From: Cyanidioschyzon merolae
Taxonomy: Eukaryota
Reading direction: 5' to 3' (one strand)
NCBI GenBank assembly: GCA_000091205.1
Contig: AP006497.2
DNA length: 64,000 nucleotides
A program made the translations under genes and the position numbers. Below the pieces are notes generated by a model. The model had not been told where the DNA came from. It worked only from the letters and a program-made list of their open reading frames with translations, and searched no databases. Position 1 is the stretch's first letter. Each line of letters starts with the position of its first letter. Of the stretch, positions 37,635 to 58,728 are shown piece after piece.

Positions 37635-38155
37635 CAAGGTGCTGCCTCGTGCGACACGCTGAACCGATCCTCCGTTGATCAGCGTACACAGGGACGTTCC
37701 TCAGTGGATGCTTGTACACCTCTGCTTCGAAGAACGCAGACACCCAAAGCTTCGTGACTCGTTTCAAGGTGCTGCCTCGTGCGACACGCTGAACCGATCC
37801 TCCGTTGATCAGCGTACACAGGGACGTTCCTCAGTGGATGCTTGTAGACCTCTGCTTAGAAGAAAGCAGACACTCAAAGCTTCGTGACTCGTTTCAAGGT
37901 GCTGCCTCGTGCGACACGCTGAACCGATCCTCCGTTGATCAGCGTACACAGGGACGTTCCTCAGTGGATGCTTGTAGACCTCTGCTTAGAAGAAAGCAGA
38001 CACTCAAAGCTTCGTGACTCGTTTCAAGGTGCTGCCTCGTGCGACACGCTGAACCGATCCTCCGTTGATCAGCGTACACAGGGACGTTCCTCAGTGGATG
38101 CTTGTACACCTCTGCTTCGAAGAACGCAGACACCCAAAGCTTCGTGACTCGTTTC
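37635..38155. repeat. Tandem minisatellite A: 130-bp unit, 4 copies, in variant order A-B-B-A (units 1 and 4 identical; units 2 and 3 identical).
   Basis: Unit starts at 37638, 37768, 37898 and 38028, each beginning ggtgctgcctcgtgcgacacgctgaaccgatcc.... Variants differ at cttgtaCacctctgcttCgaagaaCgcagacacCcaaagc versus ...G...a...a...t. The array ends 1 bp before the SelO ORF. Confidence 0.95.
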
Positions 38156-38156
38156 T

Positions 38157-40316
38157 TTGCAACGTAGAGGCGTTCGACGGAAAGCAACTCACAGCTCAGG
38201 AAACGTTGCCCCGCCGCAAGCAGCGCGGCGCAACGGCATCCTCAGACGCAAGGCGTCGGGACTCGGAAACCAAAAATGTTGTTGGTTCGAGAACTCGACT
38301 ATGACTTTTTGGGCCTGGATTGCGCTCACGGGACACAGCGGAATTCATTCGAGGTCGAGTCTGAGAACGCTCCCACGAGAGACAGCGCGAGTACGTAGGG
38401 TGCTGTGGCGGTTGTCGCCTGAACACCCACATCTCGGGCGCAGTGTGTTTACACCATCCCGTACCACGGCGCGTCCGTCAGAAGCGCGTGAGCGACTACC
38501 GCGTAGCGCTTTGCCACACCTCCGCTCAAACTACTCCTTACCTGAAACAGCGATGCTCGGGAGCGGTACTGGACACGGAAGTTCTGATGGAAAGGGAGCA
38601 CCACTACCAGCAACGACGACGACGACGACACACCAGAGTGACGAGCGCCTGCTCACACTCGACGAACTAGTGCTGAGTGCGGGGTTCGCCAGTCGTCTAC
38701 CCGCGGACCCGGAAACTGCAAACTACGTCCGCGTAGTGCGCGGTGCGGCACTTTCGTTTGTGCACCCGTCACCGACCTGGACGGAGCCGGTGCTTGCTGT
38801 CTGGTCAGACAGGTGTGCGCGTGCTTGTCTTGACCTCGAGGTGAGGCCCTCAGAGCGAGACTATGCAGCACGTGTGTTCAGTGGCCTCGCGATGTTGCCC
38901 GGATCGCGACCCTATGCGCAGCGCTACGGCGGACACCAGTTTGGCGTCTGGGCAGGTCAGCTTGGCGACGGTCGTGTCATTGTGTTGGGTGAGTACCAGA
39001 ATCGATGCGGCGAGACCTGGACCTTGCAGCTGAAAGGCGCAGGCAAGACGCCGTTTGCTCGTTTCGCTGACGGGCGCGCTGTCTTGCGCAGCAGCGTGCG
39101 AGAGTTTCTCGCCAGTGAAGCGCTACATGCGCTGGGCATCCCTACCAGTCGTGCGTTGTCCCTTGTGGTCACTGGTGACAAAGTCGTGCGGGACATGTTC
39201 TACGACGGCAATCCACGCGAGGAGCCTGGCGCTGTCGTTTGCCGTCTAGCTCCTTCATGGGTGCGGTTCGGAACGTTTGAATTGGCAACGGACTGGAATG
39301 AGCTGGAGCTTCTTCGACAGCTTGCGGACGATACGATTGTACACCACTACCCGGCATTGCTGGCACATGAGCGTTCTCACGGCAAGCGCACATCCGCAGA
39401 CTCGAGCCGCAGCGCAAGAAATGAAGAGTCCCAGAACCCAATGCCGTATCGAGCGCTTTTACTCCAAGTCGCTGAACGAACAGCTGCGCTAGTTGCCGGC
39501 TGGCAAAGCGTCGGTTTCGTACACGGAGTCTTGAACACCGACAATATGAGTATTCTGGGGATCACCATAGACTATGGTCCGTTCGGCTTCCTGGACGCTT
39601 ACATGCCCGAGTACACGCCGAATACCACAGATCTTCCGGGTCGACGCTATTGTTATGCGTTACAGCCGACCATCTGTTTGTGGAATCTGCTTCAACTAGT
39701 GCGTGCATTCGAGCCGCTCACTGGTACTAATCTCTCGGAGGAAGTGAGTCAGACCTACGAGACCAAGTTTCGCGAAGAGATGTCCGCACGCCTGCGAGCC
39801 AAACTCGGTTTCCAAACCTGGAACTCGGATGCAGATAATGGACTTGTGCGGGACCTGTATGAGCTCATGCGTCAGGATCGAGCGGATTTTACACGCACCT
39901 GGCGAGCGCTGTCCTGGTTAGAGCCCGTTGCTTGTCTACAGAAAAGCGACGCCTCGCTCGAGCCGCTGCTTCGCGTACTCCCAGAGCCGGTTCGAAAGAA
40001 TCCGGACCGACTTGAAGCTTGGCGACTTTGGGTGCAACGTTACGCAGAGCGTACGCTGGCCGAAGACAACTTTGATGGGACTGCACGGCGCAAGCAAATG
40101 CAAGCCGCGTCTCCCAAGTACATTCTACGGAATTACATGGCTCAGGTGGCAATTGAAAAGGCGGAAAATGAACAGGATTTTTCGGAAATCGAGCGACTGC
40201 TCAAGTTACTCGAACATCCGTACGCAGAACAGCCCGAAATGGAGGCACTCTACGATCGGGAGCCACCGACATGGTCCCAGCGCCTTGGAGTGTGCATGAA
40301 CAGCTGCTCTTCCTAA
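38157..40316 (+). CDS. Protein adenylyltransferase SelO (SELENOO/YdiU, UPF0061).
   Basis: HGVLNTDNMSILGITIDYGPFGFLD and GDGRAVLRSSVREFLASEALHALGIPTSRALSLVVTGDKVVRDMFYDGNPREEPGAVVCRLAPSWVRFGTFE are near-verbatim SelO family blocks. The track start is TTG 38157. In-frame ATGs are at 38301 and 38553. The 38157-38552 extension is Arg-rich with no acidic residues, so it could be a mitochondrial presequence. Confidence 0.85.
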   Translation: MQRRGVRRKATHSSGNVAPPQAARRNGILRRKASGLGNQKCCWFENSTMTFWAWIALTGHSGIHSRSSLRTLPRETARVRRVLWRLSPEHPHLGRSVFTPSRTTARPSEARERLPRSALPHLRSNYSLPETAMLGSGTGHGSSDGKGAPLPATTTTTTHQSDERLLTLDELVLSAGFASRLPADPETANYVRVVRGAALSFVHPSPTWTEPVLAVWSDRCARACLDLEVRPSERDYAARVFSGLAMLPGSRPYAQRYGGHQFGVWAGQLGDGRVIVLGEYQNRCGETWTLQLKGAGKTPFARFADGRAVLRSSVREFLASEALHALGIPTSRALSLVVTGDKVVRDMFYDGNPREEPGAVVCRLAPSWVRFGTFELATDWNELELLRQLADDTIVHHYPALLAHERSHGKRTSADSSRSARNEESQNPMPYRALLLQVAERTAALVAGWQSVGFVHGVLNTDNMSILGITIDYGPFGFLDAYMPEYTPNTTDLPGRRYCYALQPTICLWNLLQLVRAFEPLTGTNLSEEVSQTYETKFREEMSARLRAKLGFQTWNSDADNGLVRDLYELMRQDRADFTRTWRALSWLEPVACLQKSDASLEPLLRVLPEPVRKNPDRLEAWRLWVQRYAERTLAEDNFDGTARRKQMQAASPKYILRNYMAQVAIEKAENEQDFSEIERLLKLLEHPYAEQPEMEALYDREPPTWSQRLGVCMNSCSS

Positions 40317-41430
40317 CAAATTAGGCGAAAAGGTGAGGTGTCTGGTTCGTGTACCCGATCGCATGGATAGACATCCACGGATGCCTATTGAAGCACCTGT
40401 AGGAATACTCCTACGAATACCTGCGCGGATACGGCTATGGACACAGGCATGTTCATGGGTGGCAATGGTTGAAGTGCACGATTCGTGCTGGAAACTGCCT
40501 GCAACCTGTCACGTTCACAGTGTGTTGTTGCAACTTGTTTCGCATGCGTCGCCAATGCCGCGTCCCGAGTTTTCTTTTTGTAAAGAACCGCTTTCACCGA
40601 ATACGGTTGGATGCGAATCTTGATGCTCTGGTGGATCATACGCCAGAGACTAGTGGGACCGCTGCAACTGTATATATTCTCAGGACGGCGCTGTTCGTCG
40701 ATCGCGTTTCCAGACACCACACCCGAGCAGTCCATATGATCAGTTCGCATCTATGGGTTCGCCCCGGAGACGCAACGCGGGAGACGTCTTTGCACCCGAT
40801 CCCATGGGTGAATCTGCATCCACCGAGAAAACCGAGTTGAGCGCTTACCTCGTACCGTTTAGGCGATCGCTTTTGAGATCCGATGCTAGCGGGGGTCGGG
40901 GTATCCGCTGACCTTTCTACGACTGGATGCCAGCGCTATGCAGCCTGAACCTCGTCGGAGCTGCTGCTTCGATCGCCATATGAAAACGTGAGATTCGATT
41001 CGTGCAAAGCCAACAAAGAGTCCATATGCAGAATACAAACTTTTCCTTCAGCAAAAGCAGCCTCTTGCAAGTAAGGATCTACGCGAGGTTTGTGGTGTAG
41101 GACCCGTACCTCATTCGCGCTGGGGCGTCTAGAGTGCTGGGGGTCTCCGAGGTGCCCCCGCTGCACGCTCCTGCCCTGCCGCCTGCGCTAAACAACACCT
41201 TTCATATACTGGGCACTCGCGCTCTCTCTACAGGTCCTTCGCTTCATTCATCAGCAAATATCCGCCTGAACGTTTGCCGGCACTGCAACACCAGACTTGG
41301 ATAACTGCATTCAATGAAAGAGTGACGCTCTTTTTCCAACGTAGAGCGCCACCAACCTACAACCGCGTCCTAACCTGCAGCTGTTGCAAGACGCCCTAAC
41401 GAGAGCATCTTCTGTACCGAACAATTTCCA

Positions 41431-41851
41431 TACCAGTGCTGCTCCCTAAGCGCTATCCTAACCCAGCGCACAGTGTCTTGAACGGTTTTGTGGTACGCAC
41501 TCGGAAACAGTTGGCGTACCAGTGCTGCTCCCTAAGCGCTACCCTAACCCAGCGCACAGTGTCGTTAACGGTTTTGTGGTACGCACTCGGAAACAGTTGG
41601 CGTACCAGTACTGCTCCCTAAGCGCTACCCTAACCCAGCGCACAGTGTCGTTAACGGTTTTGTGGTACGCACTCGGAAACAGTTGGCGTACCAGTACTGC
41701 TCCCTAAGCGCTACCCTAACCCAGCGCACAGTGTCGTTAACGGTTTTGTGGTACGTACTCGGAAACAGTTGGCGTACCAGTACTGCTCCCTAAGCGCTAT
41801 CCTAACCCAGCGCACAGTGTTGTTAACGGTTTTGTGGTACGTACTCGGAAA
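41431..41851. repeat. Tandem minisatellite B: 86-bp unit, about 4.9 copies.
   Basis: Unit taccagtgctgctccctaagcgctatcctaacccagcgcacagtgtcttgaacggttttgtggtacgcactcggaaacagttggcg starts at 41431, 41517, 41603, 41689 and 41775. It lies immediately 5' of, and overlaps, the CtpA-like ORF extension. Confidence 0.95.
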
Positions 41852-43946
41852 CGCTCCAGTGGCCGCGTCAGCGTTCGCTGTCCACCTGTGTGCCAGCCCG
41901 TTCAACGAGTGCAGTTCTCTTTTTGAAGATAGAGGCTTCTTTATGCTTCTATTCCAGTCTACACTGGTTCGAGTTTATGTTGTCCGGAGCCCGCCTCGCA
42001 ACCGACAACTGTGTCTCCGCGCTGACTCGAGTCAAGGACGACACCTCCTGGGAGCACGACCTGCACAGCAGACGACGACGACGACAACAACCACTACAAC
42101 TACAACTGCTGCGGCGTCGAGACCGATAACCAAGCTAACAGTATTGCGAGTACAGCAGCGTTTCTGGGAGCGCCATGGAAGCGCTCCAGCGCTGGCTTGT
42201 TCGCAGAGCCCGTTGCAGCCGCACCTGGGCGTCGGTGCAGAGGCTTGCACCCGGCAACGAATCTCAGACCTCAAGCCGAGCGTCGGTGAGCGCCTCCATT
42301 CAGCCTATTATACACGATTGCGGCAAGCTGTGGCGGTAGTTAGAAACTGGGTTTGTGTTGCAAGCGCGCTTCTCTTTGTCTACCTGAGTACCAGCGACCA
42401 GGTGGCCCTGGCGGCTGCCTCACTCGCCAATGGCATGCCTCAAGACCGTCTGGCTCTGGCAACGAGTACGCCCGTTCCAGATCGCTACCGAATTCTTTGG
42501 GAGCAGGCACTGGACATCATCACGAACCTTCACTACCAACCCGGTCAACATATCCATGCAGCCTCGTTAACCATGCCTTCGCACTTGCCGCCTACGCGTG
42601 CGTCCACGATCCCATGGGGATGCTCTCTGGGAACACGTGCCTCGACCTACGATGCCATTCGGATCCGACTCAGTGAATTGAATGATCCCTACTCACGTTT
42701 CCTGGAGCCGGATGAATTTGAGGCGGAACTGAATCCTTACCGGCGAGCTCGGAAGCTCAGCGGGGTCGGCATCATACCGGAGCGCAGTCCAAAAGGCCAC
42801 GGCACGCTGCGCGTTATAGCCGTTATTCCCGAGTCACCGGCTGAGGAGGCCGGAATCAACCCCGGCGATGAACTCGTTATGATTGACGATATTGTCGTCG
42901 AGCCTTCACCTTTGAACCCGATTCCTGTGACCCCCGATGAAGCGTTGGCGTTGCTGCGCGGCCCAGCGGGTACGCGGGTTCGTCTCACTGTGCGACAAAC
43001 GACAAACTCGTTGTCGTACGCTGATGCATCGCTGCAAGTAGCGTCAGCGTCCACAGCGCCGACCTCTATGATGCGTACATATACATTAACGCGGAGACCG
43101 CTTCTGGTAGCTCCGGCTGTCTACGGCCTTGTCGCCGCGGAGCCCACTTTCGGTTACATTCGCCTCCATACCTTCAACGCCGAAGCGACACGTATCGTCT
43201 TCGAGGCTCTGAACGCATTCAAGAATTCTAGCGATCGTTCGGCAGCGGCTGGTGTTATCCTAGACCTGCGCAACTGCCGAGGTGGCGTCTTCCAGGAAGC
43301 ACTGGTGATTGCTTCGATGTTCATCGCAAACCCCGATGCCGTACTCGTCTACACCGTCGACAGTCGGGGTATCGAGCGCGCACACCGGGTGCGTGACCAG
43401 TGGAACGGTTGGCCTGAAGCTCCTGCTGCCGCTGCTCGTACTCCTCGTACTCCTCCTGAGACGCTCGGGAGCGCGGCGTCGGCCCGGCATCCGCTGTACA
43501 ATGGCCCACTGGTGGTGCTCGTCAATGGTGCCTCAGCTTCCAGTAGCGAAGTGCTTGCGATAGCCTTGCGCGATCACGGACGAGCAGTGCTGTTGGGCAT
43601 GCCAACTTTTGGGAAAGCCCGCATCCAACACTACTTCCCGCTTTTGGACGGCTCGGCGATCGCGCTCACTGTCGGGGAGTTTCTCGGCCCGCAGCACGAA
43701 CGCCTCGCGGACCACGTCGGCTTAGTGCCGCAGGTCTCCTGCAACGCTGCACCCCGGAACTTTGCGCTCCTAGAGAGACACACGCCACCAGATGCCTGCA
43801 TCGCAGAGGCAGCTCAGCTGCTAAGCGAAGAACCCACGGGGTCATCGGCTACAGAGCCGGTGCCGGTCGGTGGCTCCGTGCGGTCTGCGTTCACATCCCG
43901 AAGCAGGTCCACTGAAACGACACTGTTGCCTCGGATCCAAACCTGA
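41748..43946 (+). CDS. Carboxyl-terminal processing peptidase (S41, CtpA/tail-specific protease-like) with a PDZ domain.
   Basis: PDZ region GVGIIPERSPKGHGTLRVIAVIPESPAEEAGINPGDELVMID. S41 catalytic region ILDLRNCRGGVFQEALVIASMF ... VVLVNGASASSSEVLAIALRDHGRAVLLGMPTFGKARIQ (Ser/Lys dyad context). The track start is GTG 41748, inside an 86-bp tandem array. The first ATG beyond the repeat is 41943. Confidence 0.8.
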   Translation: MVRTRKQLAYQYCSLSAILTQRTVLLTVLWYVLGNAPVAASAFAVHLCASPFNECSSLFEDRGFFMLLFQSTLVRVYVVRSPPRNRQLCLRADSSQGRHLLGARPAQQTTTTTTTTTTTTAAASRPITKLTVLRVQQRFWERHGSAPALACSQSPLQPHLGVGAEACTRQRISDLKPSVGERLHSAYYTRLRQAVAVVRNWVCVASALLFVYLSTSDQVALAAASLANGMPQDRLALATSTPVPDRYRILWEQALDIITNLHYQPGQHIHAASLTMPSHLPPTRASTIPWGCSLGTRASTYDAIRIRLSELNDPYSRFLEPDEFEAELNPYRRARKLSGVGIIPERSPKGHGTLRVIAVIPESPAEEAGINPGDELVMIDDIVVEPSPLNPIPVTPDEALALLRGPAGTRVRLTVRQTTNSLSYADASLQVASASTAPTSMMRTYTLTRRPLLVAPAVYGLVAAEPTFGYIRLHTFNAEATRIVFEALNAFKNSSDRSAAAGVILDLRNCRGGVFQEALVIASMFIANPDAVLVYTVDSRGIERAHRVRDQWNGWPEAPAAAARTPRTPPETLGSAASARHPLYNGPLVVLVNGASASSSEVLAIALRDHGRAVLLGMPTFGKARIQHYFPLLDGSAIALTVGEFLGPQHERLADHVGLVPQVSCNAAPRNFALLERHTPPDACIAEAAQLLSEEPTGSSATEPVPVGGSVRSAFTSRSRSTETTLLPRIQT
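42071..42106. repeat. (ACG)5(ACA/ACT)n tract, encoding poly-Thr in the CtpA-like N-terminus.
   Basis: gacgacgacgacgacaacaaccactacaactacaact. Confidence 0.9.
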
Positions 43947-45329: not shown

Positions 45330-45362
45330 CAATGGGAATCGAACAAGGCACAGATGCACGCC

Positions 45363-48300
45363 TCAGGTGCCGCTTTCAAGTGCATCCAATCCACGAACGA
45401 CGTGAACGGACATGTGGACTTTGGTGACGCACGAGTTCGCCAACAGGTGCACTGCTCGCCAAACAACATCCGGCTCGATGTCGCCCAGGTGTTGTACTGG
45501 TCGCCGCAACGCCAGCGCATGCGTATGAGAGAGCAGCAGCGACGGGTGCTGCTGCAGCTCCGAACGGATCCTCTGCAGCGCCATGAGTCGACAAGTGTGG
45601 CACGAATGATCGCCCTGGTCAGCAACGTGTCCATCTTGGGGCGTCTGCTGCTCAGGCGAGGCATCGACGGTATCGCGATCCGCATAGAGTTGGAAGTAGC
45701 CGCGGTAGAGGTGTGCATCCAGGGCCGTGCGAAATGCCTCATCCTCAATGGCTTCCGCGACGCTCAACAGACCCACTACGGCTGCGGGTTGAGAGCCGGT
45801 GATCAGATTCGGCTCTCGATAGTACTTGTGGCGATTGGCAATCACATTTTCGTTGAAAACGGGCGCCCGTGAAATAGCTGTCGCTGTGAAATGCGAAAAC
45901 TCAGCGATGCCGTAGAAGAACAGGGGGTTCGTCGTTCCCGTCTGCAGGTACAGATCATTGAGTACACGTGACCACGGCAGGCCTGCTGGTATTTTCTTGG
46001 AGCCAGCATTGGTACCCTGAACCCCGGTAGGCAATTGCACGCCGGGCGCCTCGTATGATACGTAAAAGTCGGGTACAGCACCCTGGGGCATGCCCAGGAA
46101 CGCGACACTCGAGAGGTACCGTCCACGCACCGTGCGGTAGTACTCGGCTGGTGGCGCCTCAGGCGCTTCCGCTGGGCTTTGCTGCTGATTGCTGGTCCCG
46201 TCGGACGTCGCTGGAGACGTTGCTGCTGGCAGTTCACCGGTCAGCGTACAATACGCAGTCCCGTGAACGATGATGGCTTCACCCATGGTCTCCGGCGGAC
46301 GACCGTCCACGGTGCCCAGCTCAAAACCCGCAATATAGTCTTGGGAATCGATTGGAATCCGCGACAGCGCCTCTACGGACGGTATCTTACCCTCGATGAG
46401 GTTCCGCACGGAGCCCAGCGCTCGTGCTCGGCTGCCTGGCGGTTGTGGTGCATGTGGATGCAGGTTGTAGACCTTGACCGGGCTCTGGTTGGAATCCGGA
46501 CTGGACTCCAGCGGCTCTACCAGGAGTTTCTGGGAGGCGATGCAACCGAAAAAGTCGCCACTGCGCAGTAGCTGCAAAAGATATTCGCGATCCTCAGTTG
46601 ACAACGCGGCGCTCGCGGCAACATCCTCCGTTTCGCCCGCGGATTCAGCGTCCATCCGCTGACGCTGTCGATGCACCATGATAAAGCTGTCGAAAACCTG
46701 GCGGGCAATCCGCATCTCTTCGGGTGAGATGAGTCCGTCGTTGTCCAGGTCAAAGATACTCAACAGCTCCATGTCGCTAGCAGTGAGCGCCTCGGTAGGC
46801 AGGTATTCGGCAATCAGACGCAATACTGGTACCCGGTTGCTTTCCACGGTGGCGTACTCGGCCTTGAGCTCAGGGCTCTCGACCAGATCGATGAGGAACG
46901 AGTGCCGGGCATCGCCTCGTTGCTGTGCAGCAAGAGCGGACTCCAACGCCGCCGGTGCTTCCGCTGGTCGCTGGACGCGGGCGAAGCCCATACGGTACGC
47001 CTGGGCGAGTCGCTGCAAGTCTGGAAGGATGATTTCGTCGCCAGCGACGCCAGTATTCCCAAAGCGTACCCGTCCCATAACGCCGTTGCGGAGGACAATC
47101 ACGACAAGGTTATCGAGGCCCTGCTGCAGGGCAGTTCCAAGTTCCTGTTCAGCCATTTCGAAACCGCCATCGCCAGTGATGAGGTAGACGACACCCTCGC
47201 TTTTGCGTCTCTTCAGCGAGACGCCCATCGAAACGGCAGCCGGAACCGCGTACCCCATACTGCCCATGTTGATGCTGGAAAGCAGACGCGTTCCCTGCCC
47301 ATCGAAACAGAGGCAGAGACCTGCCCAGATGGTAACATCTCCGATATCCACAACCACAACATCGTCTGGACCAAGTTTCGCGGACAAGGCGGTGAGCAGG
47401 TGGCGCGGATGACAGAAGCCGCGTACCTCATCATCGCCCTCGTCAGCGGTATCGTCTGTGTCCAGCATGGAGCGCCTGCCAGTGACCATAGCGTGTGGCG
47501 TTTTGCTCAAAACTGCAGCACGACGCGGCGATGAAGGCAATGAAGCTTGACGCTCACGCCATTCACCGTCTAAAAAGTACTTCCAGAGCCGGCTCGAGTA
47601 GTCCCGGGCCTGTTGAGGGCCCGGCGGCAGCATGCGCTTTGATTGCATCTCCCGCACGCTCGCTGTTAGTGCGCTCAGCAGGGCCTCCAATTCAGGATCG
47701 ATAAGCATACACTCCACATGGTAGTAGACCTGGAGGCGCGTAGCCAGTGTATCGTCTACACCGAATACTCGGACCTGCTGTTGACCAGTAGAATCGAGCA
47801 CGACTGGATCGCAACGATCGACGCCTATCGCCAGAATACACTCGGCAGTGCTGACGAGGGCCCGCGGCGCTGCCATGCCGGGGTTCCCAAAGATCCCGTC
47901 AACACCGAGTACCAGCGGGTGATGCTCATCGACGGCACCCTTGGCGTCCAGTGTGGTAATCACCGGCGCACAGAGCGTTTCTGCGAGTTTCAAAATCGTA
48001 CTCGAGCAACGAGCCTGTGCTGCACGCAACCCGCACAGAATGACGACGCGATGTCCCAGCAGAAGGCGTCCAGCGTGCTCCACGGAAACGGCAGCGCAGC
48101 GCGGTACCTCGGCAATATGAAAGGGAAGGCGAGCCAGGGCGCTCTCGTCTGAGGGCGACGTCTGCACATCTACTGGTATCGCCAGATGTGCTGCTGTGCT
48201 TCGCTCCAGGGCGAAGCGGATAGCCGAGTCCAGCAGAGAAAGGAAGCGATCGGCAGTCATGGGGGCCTTGGCAAACTGGACGCCTGCTCCGTGCATCAGT

Positions 48301-48695
48301 TGTGCTGTTCGGGTGTCCTGGAAGCCCTCGTGTCCGATGTTACTCCGCGACACGAGGCCGCTGAGTAGGAGCACCGGCACAGAGTCCGCAAGCGCATCCA
48401 CCATGCCGCACACGGTGTAGGCGGCACCCGGACCCGAGGTGGTAACGCACACACCCAGCTTCCGATAATACTTGGCGTATGCAGATGCGGCAAACGGTGC
48501 GGCAGTTTCGTTTCGAACGAGAACCCAGTGCAGACGTGGATGCTGCACAATCGCTGTGATAAGAGGACTCGCAGCTGCTCCGTGTCCACCGAACACGAGC
48601 TCCACGTTTGCCGCCGCAAGCCGGTCTGCAATCAGGTTCGCAATGGTGTACGTGCTACCACGACTCGCTGGCATCTTGGAGGTGGTACTATTCAA
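45363..48695 (-). CDS. Multidomain protein: acetolactate-synthase-like ThDP-dependent enzyme (three domains), then a canonical EF-hand, then an uncharacterised C-terminal region of about 350 aa.
   Basis: N-terminal TPP_enzyme_N block VELVFGGHGAAASPLITAI...TTSGPGAAYTVCGMVDALADSVPVLLLSG. C-terminal ThDP motif YLITGDGGFEMAEQELGTALQQGLDNLVVIVLRNGVMG (GDG-x24-N). Then SIFDLDNDGLISPEEM, a 12-residue EF loop (D1 D3 D5 G6 I8 E12). No stop codon between the modules. The first ATG is at 48672-48674. Confidence 0.7.
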   Translation of the reverse strand: MNSTTSKMPASRGSTYTIANLIADRLAAANVELVFGGHGAAASPLITAIVQHPRLHWVLVRNETAAPFAASAYAKYYRKLGVCVTTSGPGAAYTVCGMVDALADSVPVLLLSGLVSRSNIGHEGFQDTRTAQLMHGAGVQFAKAPMTADRFLSLLDSAIRFALERSTAAHLAIPVDVQTSPSDESALARLPFHIAEVPRCAAVSVEHAGRLLLGHRVVILCGLRAAQARCSSTILKLAETLCAPVITTLDAKGAVDEHHPLVLGVDGIFGNPGMAAPRALVSTAECILAIGVDRCDPVVLDSTGQQQVRVFGVDDTLATRLQVYYHVECMLIDPELEALLSALTASVREMQSKRMLPPGPQQARDYSSRLWKYFLDGEWRERQASLPSSPRRAAVLSKTPHAMVTGRRSMLDTDDTADEGDDEVRGFCHPRHLLTALSAKLGPDDVVVVDIGDVTIWAGLCLCFDGQGTRLLSSINMGSMGYAVPAAVSMGVSLKRRKSEGVVYLITGDGGFEMAEQELGTALQQGLDNLVVIVLRNGVMGRVRFGNTGVAGDEIILPDLQRLAQAYRMGFARVQRPAEAPAALESALAAQQRGDARHSFLIDLVESPELKAEYATVESNRVPVLRLIAEYLPTEALTASDMELLSIFDLDNDGLISPEEMRIARQVFDSFIMVHRQRQRMDAESAGETEDVAASAALSTEDREYLLQLLRSGDFFGCIASQKLLVEPLESSPDSNQSPVKVYNLHPHAPQPPGSRARALGSVRNLIEGKIPSVEALSRIPIDSQDYIAGFELGTVDGRPPETMGEAIIVHGTAYCTLTGELPAATSPATSDGTSNQQQSPAEAPEAPPAEYYRTVRGRYLSSVAFLGMPQGAVPDFYVSYEAPGVQLPTGVQGTNAGSKKIPAGLPWSRVLNDLYLQTGTTNPLFFYGIAEFSHFTATAISRAPVFNENVIANRHKYYREPNLITGSQPAAVVGLLSVAEAIEDEAFRTALDAHLYRGYFQLYADRDTVDASPEQQTPQDGHVADQGDHSCHTCRLMALQRIRSELQQHPSLLLSHTHALALRRPVQHLGDIEPDVVWRAVHLLANSCVTKVHMSVHVVRGLDALESGT

Positions 48696-49883: not shown

Positions 49884-50205
49884 CTTCGCAGTTTACCGCC
49901 TGATGATCATCGCCCAGGTACACCGTCAACCATCTACGTAGCGTGCACTTGCATCCGATTTCTTTCGTTTCCATACCCCATGACGCCTTTTCGAATGCAT
50001 TCTGCATCGACAACGACGAGCACACGAGTGACTGCAGCTGACGTTTCTCGCTTCCTATAACCCGAAACGCTCGGCAACGACGCATCTCTCGAGAGCATCG
50101 CCCGCAGCCTCGGAGCATCGCAGAGGACCTGATTGCATGCAACGATGCTAGTCCATAAACCGATGGAAAAGAATTGACCCTGTGTATGGGAGCATCTGCA
50201 GCTTG

Positions 50206-50436
50206 CAGCTCATATCCATCACAAGCATCTGTACGAACACCACCGGGTTGACTGCCACACGAAGCTCTCGGGGGTGCGCGGGCAGCTCATATCCATCACA
50301 AGCATCTGTACGAACACCACCGGGTTGACTGCCACACGAAGCTCTCGGGGGTGCGCGGGCAGCTCATATCCATCACAAGCATCTGTACGAACACCACCGG
50401 GTTGACTGCCACACGAAGCGCTCGGGGGTGCGCGGG
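50206..50436. repeat. Tandem minisatellite C: 77-bp unit, 3 copies.
   Basis: Unit cagctcatatccatcacaagcatctgtacgaacaccaccgggttgactgccacacgaagctctcgggggtgcgcggg at 50206, 50283 and 50360. It lies about 200 bp 5' of the ALDH gene. Confidence 0.95.
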
Positions 50437-50640
50437 CGCTCGCGCTTTGCGTCCCGATCCGGCTGTGTGAAGCGAGGCGCTCGCGGGCGATACGCACGAC
50501 TGCCGAGTGTATCTCGACGGCTCGGGTGAGCGCGTGGAGCACTGTCGACCGCAGGTGACCATCGGGTGCAGCTTAGACCTGGTCAAAGTGTACGACGCAT
50601 ATACTCCATTACGCGTAGCGGTTGACGCTGACGGAATAAG

Positions 50641-52245
50641 ATGCTGACGTCAGCAGCTGACGACTTGTCGTCGGGATATCGGGAGGTAAGGGCGGAGCTG
50701 GGCGAAGCCTTTCGGAGTGGGGCAACACGCTCGCTTCGTTGGCGTGCAGCGCAGCTGGAAGCCCTGAAGCAGGCGCTAGTGGAACAGGAGCGCGCAATCA
50801 TCGCGGCATTAGCTGATGATCTCGGGAAGAGTGCTGAAGAGAGTCAGCTTACCGAGCTACAACCCGCACTCCAGGAACTAGCGTTGGCGCTGGGGAACCT
50901 GAAGCTCTGGGCTGGGCCCCGCACGGTAGAACCCTGCTTAGCACCCAAGTATCTGGCGCCGTGGTTCTGGTTGCAACGTGTTTGGCGCGCGGTGCTTCCT
51001 CGAGTACTGGGCGGTGGCAACCCGCCGGTGGCAAGTTACGGCGGCGTAGCACTGGCGACGATACTGGAGCGTCGCTGGGTCGTTCCTGAACCACTGGGCG
51101 TGGTGCTGATCATCACAGCCTGGAACTATCCTCTACTGCTTGCGATTTGGCATATGACAAGTGCTATCGCCGCTGGGAACTGTGTCGTCTTGAAACCAAG
51201 TGAACGTGCTCCTGCAACAGCAAAACTGCTGGCAGAGCTGGTGCGCACCTATCTCGATGCTCGCTGCATCCGAGTCGTGCTGGGCGATGCCAGCACTGTT
51301 CGGCGTCTGCTTCATCTGGATACCGAGTGTCCGGCGGATGTTGCGTTCCGCGTTTGGGCACAGCAGCGCCCTTTTGATGCGGTGCATTTCACGGGCGGCT
51401 GGAGGATTGGGCGTGAAATCGCACGCGCTTGTGCGGCCTACCTGATACCGTGCACGCTCGAACTGGGCGGTAAGAATCCGCTTGTGGTGGACTGTGCATC
51501 GCTGTCCGAGCGAGACTTGGCTCGGGTTGCCCGAACGACCGCATGGGCCAAGTTACTGAACGTGGGTCAGACGTGCATCGCCCCGGATTATGTGGTTCTA
51601 TGCGGTGCAGACCGGGCACAGGAGGCGTTCTTCATAGAAGAGATGTGGAAATCGATTGAAGCATTCTACGGGAGGCCAGTGGAAAACAGCACGACCTTCC
51701 CACGGATCGTGAGCAAGGCACATACCGCCCGTCTGGCGGACCTGCTCCAACAAAGCCGTGGTGAGGTTGTGTTCGGTGGAACCCACCGAGAGAATGACTG
51801 CTTTTTCACGCCGACCATTGTGCGCAATGTGACTCTGGATGATGCGCTGATGGCGGAGGAGATTTTCGGGCCGATACTGGTTGTTCTGCAGCCGTGTGCT
51901 GGTACCGAACAAGCGCTCGAGGTGATCGGGAGTCTACCATCTCCGCTGGTAGTCTATCTAATGTCTCGTGACGCTGCTGTGGTGCAGCGTTTTGAACGGG
52001 CATCCACCTCTGGATCGCTTGTCGTGAATGATCTGCTGGGTCAGGTAATCTCGCCGGGTCTTCCGTTTGGCGGGGTCGGCGCTTCTGGATACGGCAAGTC
52101 CAAAGGTCAAGCGGGGTTCGATGCGTTCTCGAACCTCAAGAGTGTCCTCTGCAAACCGATATGGATAGAGCGAATAGCGAGTGATCGCTACCATCCACTA
52201 ACCGCTACCAAGATCAGTCGTTTTCGTCGCTTAATCGCGCTCTGA
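50641..52245 (+). CDS. Aldehyde dehydrogenase, class-3 / fatty-aldehyde dehydrogenase type.
   Basis: ATG 50641 checked. Glu-motif LELGGKNPLVVD and catalytic Cys motif VGQTCIAPDYVV, plus FTGGWRIG. The length of about 530 aa fits ALDH3 with a C-terminal hydrophobic tail. Confidence 0.85.
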   Translation: MLTSAADDLSSGYREVRAELGEAFRSGATRSLRWRAAQLEALKQALVEQERAIIAALADDLGKSAEESQLTELQPALQELALALGNLKLWAGPRTVEPCLAPKYLAPWFWLQRVWRAVLPRVLGGGNPPVASYGGVALATILERRWVVPEPLGVVLIITAWNYPLLLAIWHMTSAIAAGNCVVLKPSERAPATAKLLAELVRTYLDARCIRVVLGDASTVRRLLHLDTECPADVAFRVWAQQRPFDAVHFTGGWRIGREIARACAAYLIPCTLELGGKNPLVVDCASLSERDLARVARTTAWAKLLNVGQTCIAPDYVVLCGADRAQEAFFIEEMWKSIEAFYGRPVENSTTFPRIVSKAHTARLADLLQQSRGEVVFGGTHRENDCFFTPTIVRNVTLDDALMAEEIFGPILVVLQPCAGTEQALEVIGSLPSPLVVYLMSRDAAVVQRFERASTSGSLVVNDLLGQVISPGLPFGGVGASGYGKSKGQAGFDAFSNLKSVLCKPIWIERIASDRYHPLTATKISRFRRLIAL

Positions 52246-53290: not shown

Positions 53291-53525
53291 GATTCGCAGG
53301 TAAAGAATCCGGTCCTTCGGACTTGTATGTAAGCTGGTGCAGAACATGAGTCATCGCGGTGATCGCTTGCAGTCGAGTGTGCATCATCGCTTTTGAGCGA
53401 AGGGTGCGCCAACGGATCGAAAGTCCTCGACGTGTTCCCCAGCCGTGAATTGCAGTTCGGTACTAGATTCATCACGATTCACATCGTGCGCCATGCATGC
53501 TTTACCGAATGGCATAGCGTTCTGT

Positions 53526-54467
53526 TTACACATGCAACCTGAAGAGCATGCGCAGAGCGCGCTCGCCCAGGAGCAGCACGTCATTGCAGGAGACGGCTCT
53601 GGGCATGGAAACGGAGCAAGGCATGGTAGGGAGCCCTCTGGATCCGTCAAGGGCATGTAACGAGCGATGAAGCGAGCCTTGACGTGCTGCAGGACGGCGC
53701 TCGAAAGATGAAGAGGTGTGTTGGATACATAAGTGCACTTGACAGCATGCACATGTTACCGCTTTGAAGCGCGCACCGGGCTCTACACAAAAGGAAACGA
53801 AAACGACAAGCGAAGCGTAACGCAACTTTCGTCTGTGTATAAAATGCGCCGTTGACAGCAACCGGAATCGGGGAAAGCGGAGCTTGAACGCCTCCAGCAA
53901 CATGCTTCGACTGCTGACAACGGAGCTTGAGGAAAACCCGAAACCAATGTATTCAGACCTTGATCTATGAGAGCACGAAAAGGAAGCACTCACAGCACAG
54001 TCCCGCAACATCTGGTTTTGATGACAGCCGCAAGAGCCCTCGACTTGCGTGCATACGCCCGAGATCGCCGCGTGCACCTCTTCCAAGTTCACGCTGACAC
54101 AGGCGTCGTCTAGGTGCTCGAGGACGGCATTGCTCTGCCCGCAAGCCGCATGCCCATGCAGTGCATACAAGCTCTTCCAAATCGTCACCTGTACGTAAAA
54201 ACAATACCAGCATTTCTCTATGGAGATTACGGTCACTATCGTTTCCGAGGCAAGTGCGTTGTCTCCATCTGCAGGAACGCTGGGGGCGCTCCCTTCTGGC
54301 TGCTCGATCGCTCGCCTCGCCCGGTGCGGGAAACTTATACCGGCCGCTTTGGCAACCAGCGGCGCGAGCGCAGCCCAACGTCGCCGCTGGCGTTGCGCTT
54401 GCTGCTGGTCAGGCCTGGAACTACTTCCAGGCAGCGGCACGAACCTCCGGGCGCCTGCAGAAGACAC
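53526..54467 (-). CDS. Hypothetical ORF, 313 aa, low complexity.
   Basis: ORF only. Overlapped by + strand ORFs. Confidence 0.2.
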   Translation of the reverse strand: MSSAGARRFVPLPGSSSRPDQQQAQRQRRRWAALAPLVAKAAGISFPHRARRAIEQPEGSAPSVPADGDNALASETIVTVISIEKCWYCFYVQVTIWKSLYALHGHAACGQSNAVLEHLDDACVSVNLEEVHAAISGVCTQVEGSCGCHQNQMLRDCAVSASFSCSHRSRSEYIGFGFSSSSVVSSRSMLLEAFKLRFPRFRLLSTAHFIHRRKLRYASLVVFVSFCVEPGARFKAVTCACCQVHLCIQHTSSSFERRPAARQGSLHRSLHALDGSRGLPTMPCSVSMPRAVSCNDVLLLGERALRMLFRLHV

Positions 54468-54687
54468 GCATCACTATCGTTCGTCTTCGTAAGTCTTTTA
54501 TTGGATATAAAGGCATCAGATCAGGCGTGCGCAGGTGATTACTGTACATAACGGCCATATGTGATGCTGGTGCGCGCACGCGTTTTTCCAGCAGCGCTCC
54601 TTCGCCGCCGTTTGACGATACCGGCCGCTGACGGGCGCGACACGTGTCCACAAGCGCTCAGGGAGCGCGTGTCCATACGACCTGGCG

Positions 54688-55797: not shown

Positions 55798-57915
55798 CAA
55801 CCACTGGTTTTCGCACACGCCTGCATGGACGAGCATGCCAACGAGAAGTGCGGTATTTCTGGACGGCGCGTCGAGCGCAGCGTGATGGATACCCACGGGC
55901 GGCTTGCGATGCTCGTATGGAGTCAAGCGTGCCTTGAAAGAGAGGTGTTTTTCTGGTTTGCTTGGTAACATCCATACGAAAACAAATTCATGATACAAAC
56001 GCACCTGAGTGTTAGATAGCTGATGAGCTGCTAGCAGACTGCTTTTGTATTCTTGCGAGCTGCGTTCCGCGCGGGCCCGTGCACCTGCACAGTAATTAGC
56101 CTCTCCTATGGGCGTGTGGTCCCCGCTCCACGTGCGACATACAGCCTGCGCGCTTTGGGCATTGCGGTTGCGGGTATCAGTTTGCTTGGTGGTGCCTGTC
56201 CGGAGACTTGCTTCTCGGGTATGGTGAGGTAACGCAGGTTTTCACCTGCTTCTGCCGCCGCTGTCGCACACCAAGGATGGACGCTACAATCACATCTTTG
56301 TAAAAGATTTGCTGTGCCCGATCACCGCGGACCTCGTTGACATGGTGCTTTGGAGTAATGACAGAGGAATCCACGCTGTTGTGGACGCCGGGTTCTGCAG
56401 CCCCTCCGAGCGCCTGCTGTTGGCCGGTCGCTGGAACGAACGCGCAGAAGCCGCTAGCCTTGGCGGGCCCATAGTTGGACAGCTTCTTGTCAGTCGATTC
56501 GTCGCTAAAGATGCCAGCATTCTCGAGTACGCGAGAACCTCGCATCGATATCCATGGGCGTTTATTACCGGCGACGATTCTGCTGAACAGGGCTGGTGGG
56601 ACTTGTTCCATGTCCCAGTATCGTACCACCAAACAGTTGAATTTCTCCTCGTACTGCTGTTCATGTGCAGATACAGCTCATTGACTCGGATGATCCAAGC
56701 AGATGTGCACCCGCGCGAGCACCTCGTGGAGTGGAAGAATAGGGGAAACCCCCAGCACATGTGCTCGCGACCCTATGTAAACCCGAGGGATGGGTGCAGC
56801 GATCGACGCTCTTCACCAGCGCCGAACGCTCCCTTGAACCTAGGATAAATACACAGCGGTGTTCAGAAGAGACTGGATCTGGGTTCTAGTGATTGATAGC
56901 GTCTCCGCACGCGTTCCATGCCAGCTCGTTTCCTCGGTGCGGTACGTGGAGAGAAGATCGCCACGATCGCTTGCAGTGGTGGTATCGGCGGCGCGCCTGC
57001 GGATAGACTCGGGTGAGGTCGCTGCGAAAAGCTCGAAAAGTCGCGCGTTGCTACCCGGCCCGTTGCCGCAATCCCGTACCGTGGTGTGAGACGTCGTCTA
57101 GACTCGTGTCAGAATCAAATGGAAGAGGTCCTTTTTTCGCGAAAACTAAGGTGTGCACGCTAAAATTTTGGTCTCTTTCCATTGTCATGAACAGAAGTCT
57201 TGTTGGCTTTTTCTGCAACTGCTTGCTGTTCCCCTCTCTGCTCCGTGGCTCTGAATACACCGCGATCTGCTCTGCCTTCAGCTCCGTTGTACGTTGTCGA
57301 AGGATATTGCTCGAAACGATCATGTCCCGATATCGCCATGTTCAGCTGTTGTCGACGCTTTACACACATAGAGAAATGTTACGATCCTCGCATTGCTTTC
57401 CATTTTCAATTTTGGTTGTATAGGGCACCGGTATGCGCTTCGCGGCGGTCGCATTTGGCCGTGGCCAGGTGCTCCCGGATGTTCAAGGATCCTCCTACTC
57501 CGCCTCCGAGCGCAGCCCCGTAACGCGTGAACTCTTGCATCAGCGCTCGGTACTTGTCACGGAGAGGAAAAGAAGGCCTCCGGCGATTTGCCCCTCAAGT
57601 GCGGCGCCCGGTGCCATAAACCACGTTCATGAGCGTATCCTAGTCGAACTCTTCGACGGGTACTCTGTCCGGTGCACTTGCAAGCGCACGTTATTCGCTT
57701 CGATGGAGCATTTGCGCATCGCGATCTTGTCGCTGGCGAAACAAACACCCGCAGGAAAATCCAGACATGAGCAGGACCCGAGCTGTTTCGATCGTTCAAT
57801 GCTCGCTTGATGCAAAGCGGTGTCGCACGCGCAGCTGGAAGCAGCTTCCGTGATGACTGGAGTCCGAGTTCATAATGCATTCCCATGAAAGCAGAACAGA
57901 TAAAAGCTTCTGGAG

Positions 57916-58265
57916 GCATGTCCCGTCAGCGATATTCTGCTGCTTCTAAGTTCGGTTTCGTAGAAAGCCAAAAAGACAGGAAGAAATATCTTTCAAACGG
58001 AATCGATGATTGAGCATGAAAAGTTTCACGAACATGCGGCATGAGCTTGAGAACAGGTAGTCAAGACCGATGTAGAGGTTTTTTGCTTTGCAAGCCCAGC
58101 GACCCCAATTGCTGCGCCCACAAACTGCCTCGAAACAGACAGGTCGAATACTTGGAAGATTCATGATTCGAGCATGCTCCACACAACGAAAGGAGAAGAG
58201 CGGATTCTCGCACATTTGAACTGGATCATGATTTCTTTGATTTTACGAACCCTAGTTCTCGGATA
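57916..58265 (+). repeat. Dispersed repeat family L, copy 3.
   Basis: Aligns block by block with copy 1. It lies about 230 bp upstream of minisatellite D. Confidence 0.75.
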
Positions 58266-58491
58266 TCGCGACTCTTGTTGGTTCTGGTGACGTTCCGTTC
58301 TCCTGTACCAATGCATCGAAACAGGCACTCCGCGAACACGACAGAGAATACTAGGGAACTACGTATCAGTGCATAGGTCCTCATCATTACATGATGGAAG
58401 TCCAGGATGTCCTTCTATAAAGCTATGAAAACATTCTACTTGCAACAAAGAACACCCTGCTCCGTGTTCCATTTTAAACTGGCACAGTAGG

Positions 58492-58728
58492 AATACTAGC
58501 AAGCAATGGGATGCTTCTCGGCACCTTATAGCGCACCCGAGTACCTCACCTGCCATGATCCAGTCACCGCAATACTAGCAAGCAATAGGATGCTTCTCGG
58601 CACCTTATAGCGCACCCGAGTACCTCACCTGCCATGATCCAGTCACCGCAATACTAGCAAGCAATAGGATGCTTCTCGGCACCTTATAGCGCACCCGAGT
58701 ACCTCACCTGCCATGATCCAGTCACCGC
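58492..58728. repeat. Tandem minisatellite D: 79-bp unit, 3 copies.
   Basis: Unit aatactagcaagcaat(g/a)ggatgcttctcggcaccttatagcgcacccgagtacctcacctgccatgatccagtcaccgc at 58492, 58571 and 58650. It lies about 120 bp 5' of the MYSM1-like ORF and is followed by (GC)10. Confidence 0.95.

What the first reader, a model, noticed from the sequence alone, without database searches (positions are those of the whole stretch)
37635..58728. Four unrelated minisatellite arrays each sit immediately 5' of a plus-strand gene (SelO, CtpA, ALDH, MYSM1-like)
Arrays A (130 bp x4, 37635-38155), B (86 bp x4.9, 41431-41851), C (77 bp x3, 50206-50436) and D (79 bp x3, 58492-58728) have completely different unit sequences. 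All four end within 0-200 bp of the start of a + strand ORF. A and B run straight into the in-frame upstream extension of the ORF. Such a consistent promoter-proximal position across unrelated repeats suggests a function. They could be repeat-based promoter or 5'UTR elements, an insulator or nucleosome-positioning role, or the locus may preferentially generate and retain minisatellites at 5' ends. All four units share a short GCGCAC-type core (cagcgtacacag in A, cagcgcacagtg in B, agcgcacccgag in D, ccgcgcacc on the complementary strand of C). This could be a common factor-binding motif or could be chance.
Basis: seen in the sequence. Interest (0 to 1): 0.6.

Follow-up and report, generated by a model that had tools for sequence, protein, structure and literature searches.

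The report
Variable minisatellites near red-alga gene starts
Their closeness to gene starts is suggestive but unproven, and nothing points to a shared function.

Summary
All four arrays are confirmed at the stated coordinates. A fifth, E (84 bp x2.4, 62312-62510), was missed. The window is Cyanidioschyzon merolae 10D, chromosome 15.

The arrays are unrelated local amplifications of unique intergenic DNA. They are non-coding and show no excess folding and no RNA-family match.

They behave as VNTRs:
- Wild strains about 99% identical carry different copy numbers and different orders of variant units.
- Cyanidiococcus has none in the syntenic 21 kb.
- A sister lineage has seven unrelated arrays: three within 200 bp upstream of a start codon, three within 130 bp after a stop codon, and one 456 bp upstream.

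The 'GCGCAC core' is chance. Of random sets of four window segments, 88% share an equally good degenerate 6-mer. E lacks the motif, and it is mutated in natural D alleles.

A-D end 146, 91, 200 and 143 bp before the first in-frame ATG. E is mid-intergenic, inside a dispersed repeat. Uniform placement would rarely give 4 of 5 within 200 bp of an ATG (P about 0.001, post-hoc threshold). The sister lineage gives 3 of 6 (P=0.10).

Verdict: ordinary intergenic VNTRs, possibly biased towards gene boundaries. This is a new example of a known kind.

The parts
37635..38155 (.). Array A: 130 bp x4.0, variant order a-b-b-a. Ends 146 bp before the SelO ATG, in a divergent interval.
   Evidence: TRF; sequence; unit listing. 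One copy in strain contigs L008 and L010 (assembly collapse is possible).
41431..41852 (.). Array B: 86 bp x4.9. Ends 91 bp before the first in-frame ATG of CtpA and starts 1115 bp after the SelO stop.
   Evidence: TRF. Alleles with 2.9 and 1.9 copies and different variant units in L008 and L010.
50205..50441 (.). Array C: 77 bp x3.1. Ends 200 bp before the ALDH ATG, in the divergent interval between the TPP-enzyme gene (-) and ALDH (+).
   Evidence: TRF. 2.0-2.1 copies in L001, L008, L009 and L013; one copy in L010, L012 and L014. Four metagenome contigs begin at or just after it.
58492..58730 (.). Array D: 79 bp x3.0. Ends 143 bp before the MYB/MPN gene ATG and starts exactly where dispersed repeat R2 ends.
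   Evidence: TRF. Strain alleles have 3 or 4 copies with reshuffled variant units.
62312..62510 (.). Array E (not in the finding): 84 bp x2.4. Mid-intergenic, 1523 bp after the MYB/MPN stop and about 1.9 kb before the photolyase ATG, inside dispersed repeat S.
   Evidence: TRF. Its paralogue at 29650-29733 has one copy of the unit. The next annotated gene is BAM81670, 6-4 photolyase. About 2 to 2.7 copies in strains.
38301..40316 (+). SelO gene (BAM81663.1, 671 aa)
   Evidence: Pfam SelO E=1e-120; exact look-up.
41943..43946 (+). CtpA-like S41 peptidase ORF counted from the first in-frame ATG. The start is not confirmed; the next ATG is at 42435.
   Evidence: Pfam Peptidase_S41 and PDZ. The exact look-up of the 667-aa form failed. 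The N-terminal 160-180 residues are not conserved.
45363..48674 (-). TPP-dependent enzyme gene (BAM81666.1). Its 5' end faces array C across the divergent interval.
   Evidence: Pfam; exact look-up.
50641..52245 (+). Aldehyde dehydrogenase gene (BAM81667.1)
   Evidence: Pfam; exact look-up identifies C. merolae 10D on a 902,900-bp record.
58873..60789 (+). MYB-related / MPN (JAB) protein gene (BAM81669.1)
   Evidence: Pfam; exact look-up.
57068..58492 (+). Dispersed, diverged repeat R2. Paralogues are R1 at 35646-36836 (+) and R3 at 52718-54133 (-), about 58-62% identical. It fills most of the interval upstream of array D.
61500..63950 (+). Dispersed repeat S, paralogue of about 28900-30700. 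It hosts array E.

Best explanation
The arrays are five independent, recently amplified, non-coding minisatellites (VNTRs) in the repeat-expanded spacer DNA of Cyanidioschyzon merolae 10D chromosome 15.

Each began as a tandem duplication of a unique local segment of 77-130 bp. Each then gains, loses and reshuffles copies by replication slippage, unequal sister-chromatid exchange or gene conversion. This mechanism is inferred from the allele structures, not observed directly.

The arrays share no sequence element and no common function. The '5' of a plus-strand gene' rule has three likely sources. First, the local run of plus-strand genes. Second, a small sample. Third, possibly a general tendency, seen also in a sister lineage, for such arrays to lie 90-200 bp outside coding-sequence boundaries at either gene end. 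Any effect on expression would be a by-product.
For: - Arrays are real and highly homogeneous, 97-99% between copies.
- Organism and gene starts are fixed by exact protein look-ups.
- Units are unrelated to each other and to anything else in about 190 kb of sampled sequence.
- Periods of A-D are not multiples of 3, and every frame carries stops.
- DNA folding is no better than shuffles, z from 0.05 to 1.1. There are no Rfam or tRNA hits.
- Copy number in strains about 99% identical: A 4 vs 1; B 4.9 vs 2.9 vs 1.9; C 3.1 vs 2 vs 1; D 3 vs 4; E 2.4 vs 2.7.
- Alleles of D and B carry different orders of variant units. This is classical minisatellite behaviour and cannot come from assembly collapse.
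- Two sister-lineage assemblies 99.96% identical differ by 3.0 vs 2.0 copies of a 110-bp unit.
- Cyanidiococcus has no minisatellite in the syntenic 21 kb. This fits the published repeat expansion in C. merolae intergenic DNA: 12.7% vs 0.59% repeats and mean spacer 1890 vs 930 bp (PMC9812998).
- Sister-lineage arrays are unrelated in sequence. They lie upstream of ATGs (15, 174, 196 and 456 bp), just after stops (57 and 130 bp) and in convergent intervals.
- Array E in the window itself is mid-intergenic.
- The shared motif is explained by chance.
- Ensembl lists 3335 TRF features for this 16.5-Mb genome (PMC11050394), so the window's density is typical.
Against: - Placement is not what a uniform model predicts. 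In C. merolae, 4 of 5 arrays end within 200 bp of an ATG (expected 0.64, P=0.0012). With the sister lineage the count is 7 of 11 (P=0.0007). Within 200 bp of any CDS end it is 9 of 11 (P=0.0005). A positional bias may therefore be real and is not explained by pure neutrality.
- In two intergenic intervals (SelO-CtpA and upstream of the MYB/MPN gene), both lineages carry an array of unrelated sequence.
- Copy numbers from short-read metagenome assemblies can be collapsed, so part of the polymorphism evidence is soft, especially the single-copy calls for A and C.
Confidence: 0.6

Rival explanations
1. Mutational hot spot. Minisatellites are preferentially born, or expand, at the edges of transcription units. 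These would be open or nucleosome-depleted DNA at promoters and terminators that is prone to double-strand breaks, R-loops or replication stalling. No function is needed. The position is a footprint of where tandem duplication happens.
For: - 9 of 11 arrays in two lineages lie within 200 bp of a CDS boundary (P=0.0005). The independent sister sample alone gives 5 of 6 (P=0.024).
- Arrays of unrelated sequence recur in the same two intervals in both lineages.
- Both 5' and 3' ends are hit.
- A (CG)10 tract lies between array D and the ATG, and a (CA)n tract lies 320 bp upstream of C.
- A sexual cycle, and so possibly meiotic recombination, is now described for this algal class (PMC13353863).
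Against: - Only 11 arrays were counted and the threshold was chosen after seeing the data. There is no enrichment at 100 bp or less.
- E lies 1.5-1.9 kb from both genes.
- Transcription start sites and chromatin maps could not be consulted here.
- The first 37 kb of the window has many gene boundaries and no array.
Confidence: 0.25
2. Selected cis-regulatory repeats. The arrays would be multimerised promoter or 5'UTR modules whose copy number tunes expression of the downstream gene, as in yeast promoter repeats or the tandem-repeat enhancers in fungal cyp51 promoters.
For: - A-D end 91-200 bp upstream of the start codon, where a proximal promoter is expected.
- Copy number varies between strains, which is the raw material for such tuning.
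- In humans, common minisatellite VNTRs are enriched in the 1 kb upstream of genes and some associate with expression (PMC8096271).
Against: - There is no shared motif beyond chance.
- The candidate core is mutated in natural D alleles.
- The arrays are absent or single-copy in close strains and absent in Cyanidiococcus.
- The sister lineage has comparable arrays after stop codons and between convergent genes.
- The arrays are not AT-rich or nucleosome-excluding: GC 0.53-0.61 against 0.54 for intergenic DNA.
- No C. merolae promoter has been dissected, so no known element can be matched (PMC12770821).
Confidence: 0.12
3. Transposon-borne repeats. The arrays would be internal or terminal minisatellites of mobile or dispersed elements that happened to insert upstream of genes.
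For: - E sits inside dispersed repeat S, whose paralogue has a single copy of the unit.
- D starts exactly at the end of dispersed repeat R2.
- C. merolae has 253 copies of a 3.2-kb interspersed element (PMC1955436).
Against: - The units of A-D have no second copy anywhere in the window or in about 125 kb of related loci.
- R1 and R3 carry no D-like sequence at the matching end.
- No terminal inverted repeats flank the arrays.
- Even in E, the duplication is a local event inside one copy of the element.
Confidence: 0.03

Closest known systems
Hypervariable minisatellites / VNTRs (as in humans, with minisatellite variant-repeat maps)
   Same: Head-to-tail units of tens of bp and non-coding. Copy number differs between individuals. 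Alleles differ in the interspersion order of variant units (D and B). Turnover between lineages is fast.
   Different: Arrays are very short (2-5 copies). Units are not G-rich and have no shared core. The host is a haploid-phase unicellular red alga with a 16.5-Mb genome. Polymorphism was read from metagenome assemblies, not from typed individuals.
Promoter tandem repeats that confer expression variability in yeast (Vinces et al. 2009, recalled from my own knowledge), and TSS-proximal common VNTRs in humans (PMC8096271)
   Same: Located within a few hundred bp upstream of start codons, with variable copy number.
   Different: Yeast promoter repeats are mostly short-unit, AT-rich and nucleosome-excluding. 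These have 77-130-bp units of average GC content. No effect on expression has been shown. In the sister lineage, similar arrays also sit at 3' ends.
Tandem-repeat enhancers in fungal cyp51 promoters (TR34/TR46 in Aspergillus fumigatus, 126-bp x5 in Penicillium digitatum; from my own knowledge)
   Same: A 34-126-bp unique promoter segment is tandemly multiplied just upstream of a gene, and the result is strain-specific.
   Different: Those are single loci under strong drug selection with a demonstrated dose effect. Here there are five unrelated loci in 25 kb next to housekeeping-type genes, with no sign of selection.
Dispersed 'WSV' repeats and repeat-expanded intergenic DNA of C. merolae (PMC1955436, PMC9812998)
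   Same: Same genome compartment. Array E lies inside a dispersed repeat. The arrays add to the longer spacers of C. merolae compared with Cyanidiococcus.
   Different: A-D are local tandem amplifications of unique sequence, not copies of a dispersed family.

Membership tests
VNTR minisatellite | Head-to-tail tandem copies of a unit of about 10-100+ bp | tested here: met
   TRF periods are 130, 86, 77, 79 and 84 bp, with 2.4-4.9 copies and 97-99% matches.
VNTR minisatellite | Copy number polymorphic among individuals or strains | tested here: met
   All five arrays differ in copy number among contigs of strains about 99% identical. D has 4 copies in L010 and L014 against 3 in 10D, which collapse cannot explain. 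Single-copy calls may be assembly collapse.
VNTR minisatellite | Alleles differ in the internal order of variant repeats | tested here: met
   D has four unit variants, arranged differently in L012, L013, L014 and 10D. B alleles carry different variant units.
VNTR minisatellite | Non-coding | tested here: met
   Periods of A-D are not multiples of 3 and all six frames carry stops. All five arrays lie outside the CDSs that were matched exactly or located here (SelO, ALDH, MYB/MPN, photolyase and the TPP enzyme; the CtpA start is unconfirmed). E has an 84-bp period and one open frame, but it lies in an unannotated decayed repeat.
Functional promoter tandem repeat (yeast-type or cyp51-type) | Lies in the promoter, upstream of the transcription start site | tested here: inconclusive
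   A-D end 91-200 bp upstream of the ATG. No transcription start site is known for any C. merolae promoter (PMC12770821). E is not promoter-proximal.
Functional promoter tandem repeat (yeast-type or cyp51-type) | Copy number changes expression of the adjacent gene | not testable with these tools
   This needs expression data from lines that differ in copy number.
Functional promoter tandem repeat (yeast-type or cyp51-type) | Nucleosome-excluding (AT-rich) composition, or a recognisable factor-binding motif in each unit | tested here: not met
   GC is 0.53-0.61 (E 0.46) against an intergenic mean of 0.54, and no TATA-like hexamer is present. The only shared word, CGCAC/GCGNAC, is expected by chance and is mutated in natural alleles.
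Transposable-element-borne minisatellite | The unit and its flanks recur at dispersed sites | tested here: not met
   The A-D units have no other copy in the window plus six related loci. E is a partial exception: it lies inside dispersed repeat S, and the paralogue has one copy of the unit.
Nucleosome-positioning or insulator array | Unit length matching the nucleosome repeat (about 147-200 bp), or a conserved binding site | tested here: not met
   Units are 77-130 bp here and 44-117 bp in the sister lineage, with no common length or motif.
Structured RNA or known RNA family | Match to a covariance model, or folding stronger than shuffled sequence | tested here: not met
   The whole window has no Rfam hit, and unit folding z-scores are 0.05-1.13.

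The most novel reading that the evidence does not exclude
In Cyanidioschyzon-lineage genomes, minisatellites are born preferentially 90-200 bp outside coding-sequence boundaries, at both 5' and 3' ends. They would then mark the open-chromatin edges of transcription units. These could be recombination or double-strand-break hot spots of the recently discovered sexual cycle. The arrays would also give wild strains a pool of promoter-proximal length variants that modulate expression.
Probability: 0.2. Interest if true: 0.45.

Novelty: new member of a known kind. Interest (0 to 1): 0.25.

Why it matters
C. merolae is a model alga praised for its 'simplest' genome, and no endogenous promoter has yet been dissected. 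Three practical consequences follow:
- Many upstream regions used as promoters or as homologous-recombination targets may contain strain-variable minisatellites.
- Such arrays break short-read assemblies. Many metagenome contigs start exactly at arrays C and D.
- They offer ready-made VNTR markers for typing wild Cyanidioschyzon populations.

If the gene-boundary bias holds genome-wide, it would add a deep-branching lineage to the known link between tandem repeats and promoters. It would also give a sequence-only way to locate the edges of transcription units.

Tried and rejected
- Shared GCGCAC core: rejected by resampling and by allele comparison.
- Coding or N-terminal-extension reading of A and B: rejected.
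- Hairpin or structured units: rejected. Known RNA families and tRNAs: none.
- Homology between C. merolae arrays and sister-lineage arrays at the same intervals: none found.
- Assembly artefact: rejected, because the arrays recur in independent metagenome assemblies.
- Fetching more of the 10D chromosome failed. Four exact look-ups of 10D proteins (the MYB-related protein, cohesin SA, ADC synthase and the 674-aa ORF at 599-2623) found no gene on record in the position index. A scan of viral contigs for a dispersed-repeat word found nothing. A genome-wide positional test was therefore not possible.
- The third homologous-protein search was left unused. With no look-ups left it could not add sequence.
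- A relaxed TRF run added mostly low-scoring noise (scores below about 110). It added one real sister array, s7.
- The promoter/terminator scanner was not used, because it models bacterial signals.


Full report
**Observation**

Tandem Repeats Finder on the whole window reproduces the four arrays almost to the base:
- A: 37635-38155, 130 bp x4.0
- B: 41431-41852, 86 bp x4.9
- C: 50205-50441, 77 bp x3.1
- D: 58492-58730, 79 bp x3.0

Identity between copies is 97-99%. No comparable array lies in 1-37 kb.

The units are mutually unrelated. They have no second copy in the window or in six related loci, about 190 kb in all.

**Where the window comes from**

The ALDH ORF is exactly BAM81667.1 of Cyanidioschyzon merolae strain 10D, on a 902,900-bp record. 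That length is chromosome 15 (table in PMC11050394).

Exact look-ups also fix the annotated starts of four neighbouring genes:
- SelO: ATG 38301, BAM81663
- TPP enzyme on the minus strand: ATG 48674, BAM81666
- Fatty-acid hydroxylase: ATG 54799, BAM81668
- MYB-related/MPN protein: ATG 58873, BAM81669

The next annotated gene is the 6-4 photolyase, BAM81670, which starts just beyond the window end.

The real gaps from array end to ATG are A 146, B 91, C 200 and D 143 bp. For B, I used the first in-frame ATG at 41943, which is not confirmed. The N-terminal 160-180 residues of CtpA are not conserved. If the next ATG at 42435 is the true start, B lies 583 bp away.

A and C sit in divergent intervals, where both sides are 5' ends. 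B and D sit in head-to-tail intervals.

E lies 1523 bp after the MYB/MPN stop and about 1.9 kb before the photolyase ATG. It is a counter-example inside the window.

**What the arrays are**

- Periods of A-D are not multiples of three, and all six frames contain stops.
- GC content is 0.53-0.61, against 0.54 for intergenic DNA. There is no TATA-like hexamer.
- As single-stranded DNA, the units fold no better than shuffled sequence, z from 0.05 to 1.13.
- The window has no Rfam match and no tRNA.

The proposed common core reduces to the 5-mer CGCAC, or the degenerate word GCGNAC. Among 1000 random sets of four window segments of the same lengths, 50% share an exact 5-mer. 88% share some 6-mer with one free position. 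E lacks the motif.

In natural alleles of D, the core is changed in some units: TAGTGCGACACAG or TAGTGCACCCGAG instead of TAGCGCACCCGAG. The motif is therefore chance.

**Variation among strains**

JGI, ENA and Logan metagenome contigs about 99% identical to 10D cover the region. Copy numbers by array:

| Array | 10D | Strain contigs |
|---|---|---|
| A | 4.0 | 1 (L008, L010) |
| B | 4.9 | 2.9 (L008), 1.9 (L010) |
| C | 3.1 | 2.0-2.1 (L001, L008, L009, L013), 1 (L010, L012, L014) |
| D | 3.0 | 3.0 (L008, L012, L013), 4.0 (L010, L014) |
| E | 2.4 | 2.7 in six loci; about 2 copies in L012 (read directly); no TRF hit in L012, L014 or L018 |

Short-read assemblies can collapse repeats, so the low numbers are soft evidence. 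Two observations cannot be collapse. First, D has more copies in two strains than in 10D. Second, alleles of D and B carry distinguishable unit variants in different orders. That is the classical signature of minisatellite unequal exchange or conversion.

In 10D, the D units are nearly identical (99%), whereas wild alleles are 91-93%. This implies recent homogenisation in 10D.

Many contigs begin at or inside arrays C and D. The arrays are therefore present, and break assemblies, in many samples.

**Other lineages**

The syntenic 21 kb of Cyanidiococcus yangmingshanensis has no minisatellite. This agrees with published figures: 0.59% repeats and 930-bp mean spacers there, against 12.7% and 1890 bp in C. 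merolae (PMC9812998).

A third lineage, known only from metagenomes and one NCBI assembly, has ALDH 64% identical to that of 10D. About 61 kb of its syntenic sequence was recovered. Its gene models are conserved orthologues of the window genes. Its spacers do not align with those of 10D, apart from one block.

This lineage has seven arrays of its own, all with unrelated units:

| Array | Unit x copies | Position |
|---|---|---|
| s1 | 81 x1.9 | 57 bp after the SelO stop |
| s2 | 75 x2.8 | 456 bp before the CtpA ATG |
| s3 | 44 x4.4 | 174 bp before the MYB/MPN ATG |
| s4 | 93 x2.0 | 196 bp before a DEAD-helicase ATG |
| s5 | 117 x2.1 | Convergent interval, 113 bp after a stop; seen in one assembly only |
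| s6 | 110 x3.0 or 2.0 | Convergent interval, 130 bp from a stop; two assemblies 99.96% identical differ in copy number |
| s7 | 62 x2.1 | 15 bp before the LSM ATG |

So arrays arise and disappear quickly. They are not tied to particular sequences, and they also sit at 3' ends.

**Is the position non-random?**

I placed each array at random in the intergenic DNA of its own lineage, using only conserved or annotated genes. For arrays ending within 200 bp of a feature:

| Sample | Within 200 bp of an ATG | Within 200 bp of any CDS end |
|---|---|---|
| C. merolae | 4 of 5 (expected 0.64, P=0.0012) | 4 of 5 (P=0.011) |
| Sister lineage | 3 of 6 (expected 1.23, P=0.10) | 5 of 6 (P=0.024) |
| Both | 7 of 11 (P=0.0007) | 9 of 11 (P=0.0005) |

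- Including small unannotated ORFs as genes raises the C. merolae P value to 0.007.
- There is no enrichment at 100 bp or less.
- The threshold was taken from the finding itself, so it is post hoc, and n is 11.
- If the CtpA start is 42435, C. merolae drops to 3 of 5.
- I could not obtain more of the genome, because the position index does not hold the 10D record.

The fair reading is this. A bias towards gene boundaries is suggested. An exclusive 5' rule is not replicated. A genome-wide count is needed.

**Mechanism**

Shown:
- The arrays are independent local tandem amplifications of unique, non-conserved spacer DNA.
- Copy number and variant order change between close strains.
- Turnover between lineages is fast.

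Inferred:
- Origin by tandem duplication, followed by slippage, unequal exchange or conversion.
- Near-neutrality.

If the boundary bias is real, the simplest cause is mutational: open DNA at promoters and terminators that is prone to breaks. It need not be functional, because arrays at stops and in convergent intervals look the same as those at starts.

A regulatory side-effect of A-D cannot be excluded. No C. merolae promoter has been mapped (PMC12770821).

**Comparison with known systems**

The arrays meet every tested criterion of VNTR minisatellites. They resemble promoter tandem repeats of yeast and TSS-proximal VNTRs of humans (PMC8096271) in position and variability. They differ in composition, they have no recognisable motif, and no effect on expression has been shown.

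They are not transposon-borne. The partial exception is E, which lies inside a dispersed repeat whose paralogue at 29650-29733 has a single copy of the unit.

Ensembl already lists 3335 TRF features for this genome (PMC11050394). I found no paper that analyses their position relative to genes.

**Verdict**

A shared function is not supported. The positional idea remains open.

This is a new example of a known kind of sequence, of modest interest. It has practical value as a source of VNTR markers and as a caution for promoter constructs and short-read assemblies.

Noticed in passing
window 35646-36836 (+), 57068-58492 (+), 52718-54133 (-): Three diverged copies (about 58-62% nucleotide identity) of a dispersed segment of 1.2-1.45 kb, family R, lie within 23 kb. 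None is annotated as a gene in 10D. R2 ends exactly where array D begins. Its nature (decayed gene family, old mobile element or part of the 'WSV' interspersed repeat) was not determined.
   Followed up: partly
window about 28900-30700 and 61500-63950; also 10034-10603, 18290-18581, 13011-13187 (inverted), 28285-28513: Two further dispersed repeat families. Family S is about 70% identical in its best part. Family T is up to 82% identical. They fill spacers that are far longer in 10D than in the sister lineage. For example, RRM gene to DnaJ gene is 4.9 kb against about 1.0 kb, and MYB/MPN gene to photolyase is 3.6 kb against 1.2 kb. They may be pieces of the published 253-copy, 3.2-kb interspersed element (PMC1955436).
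   Followed up: partly
window 54250-54475: This is the only intergenic block that still aligns between C. merolae, the sister lineage (L006 12618-12847, 67-78%) and Cyanidiococcus (L011 12382-12604). It lies 325-550 bp upstream of the fatty-acid hydroxylase ATG. It could be an unannotated small gene, an ncRNA or a conserved regulatory element. It has no Rfam hit.
   Followed up: no
window 58770-58789; 49861-49886; 20164-20181; 28549-28566; 31243-31269: Alternating purine-pyrimidine tracts lie in the spacers. A (CG)10 tract sits between array D and the MYB/MPN ATG, 84 bp upstream of it. A (CA)n tract lies about 320 bp upstream of array C. Several other (CA)n and (GT)n tracts are present. Such tracts can adopt Z-DNA and are recombination-prone, but no test was made.
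   Followed up: no
window 43814-44116 (-) versus 41943-43946 (+): An LSM-domain gene on the minus strand overlaps the 3' end of the CtpA gene by about 130 bp, in convergent orientation. The same arrangement is found in the sister lineage (L026 11782-12084 versus 10001-11914).
   Followed up: partly
loci L002-L005 and L015-L021 (metagenome contigs): Contigs from many independent samples begin 116-199 bp upstream of the ALDH ATG or 123-366 bp upstream of the MYB/MPN ATG. That is at, inside or just after arrays C and D. The simplest reading is assembly breakage at the repeats. Some of the short contigs could instead be transcript assemblies whose 5' ends mark start sites.
   Followed up: no
window 38100-38300 and cluster of P0135: Several wild-strain gene calls for SelO are 738 aa instead of 671 aa. 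They start 201 nt further upstream, inside the A-unit sequence. This shows that the stop codon closing the frame in 10D is absent there. It is probably an artefact of gene calling, not a real extension.
   Followed up: no
window 32286-32346, 34200-34238, 38611-38630, 42073-42090, 20348-20390: Trinucleotide runs lie inside coding sequences. (CGA)16 and GAC/GAT runs sit in the DnaJ gene. (ACC)13 sits in the 370-aa gene. GAC runs lie near the N-termini of both SelO and CtpA, and a CTGCGG-type run lies at 20348-20390. They encode low-complexity acidic or Thr-rich tracts.
   Followed up: no
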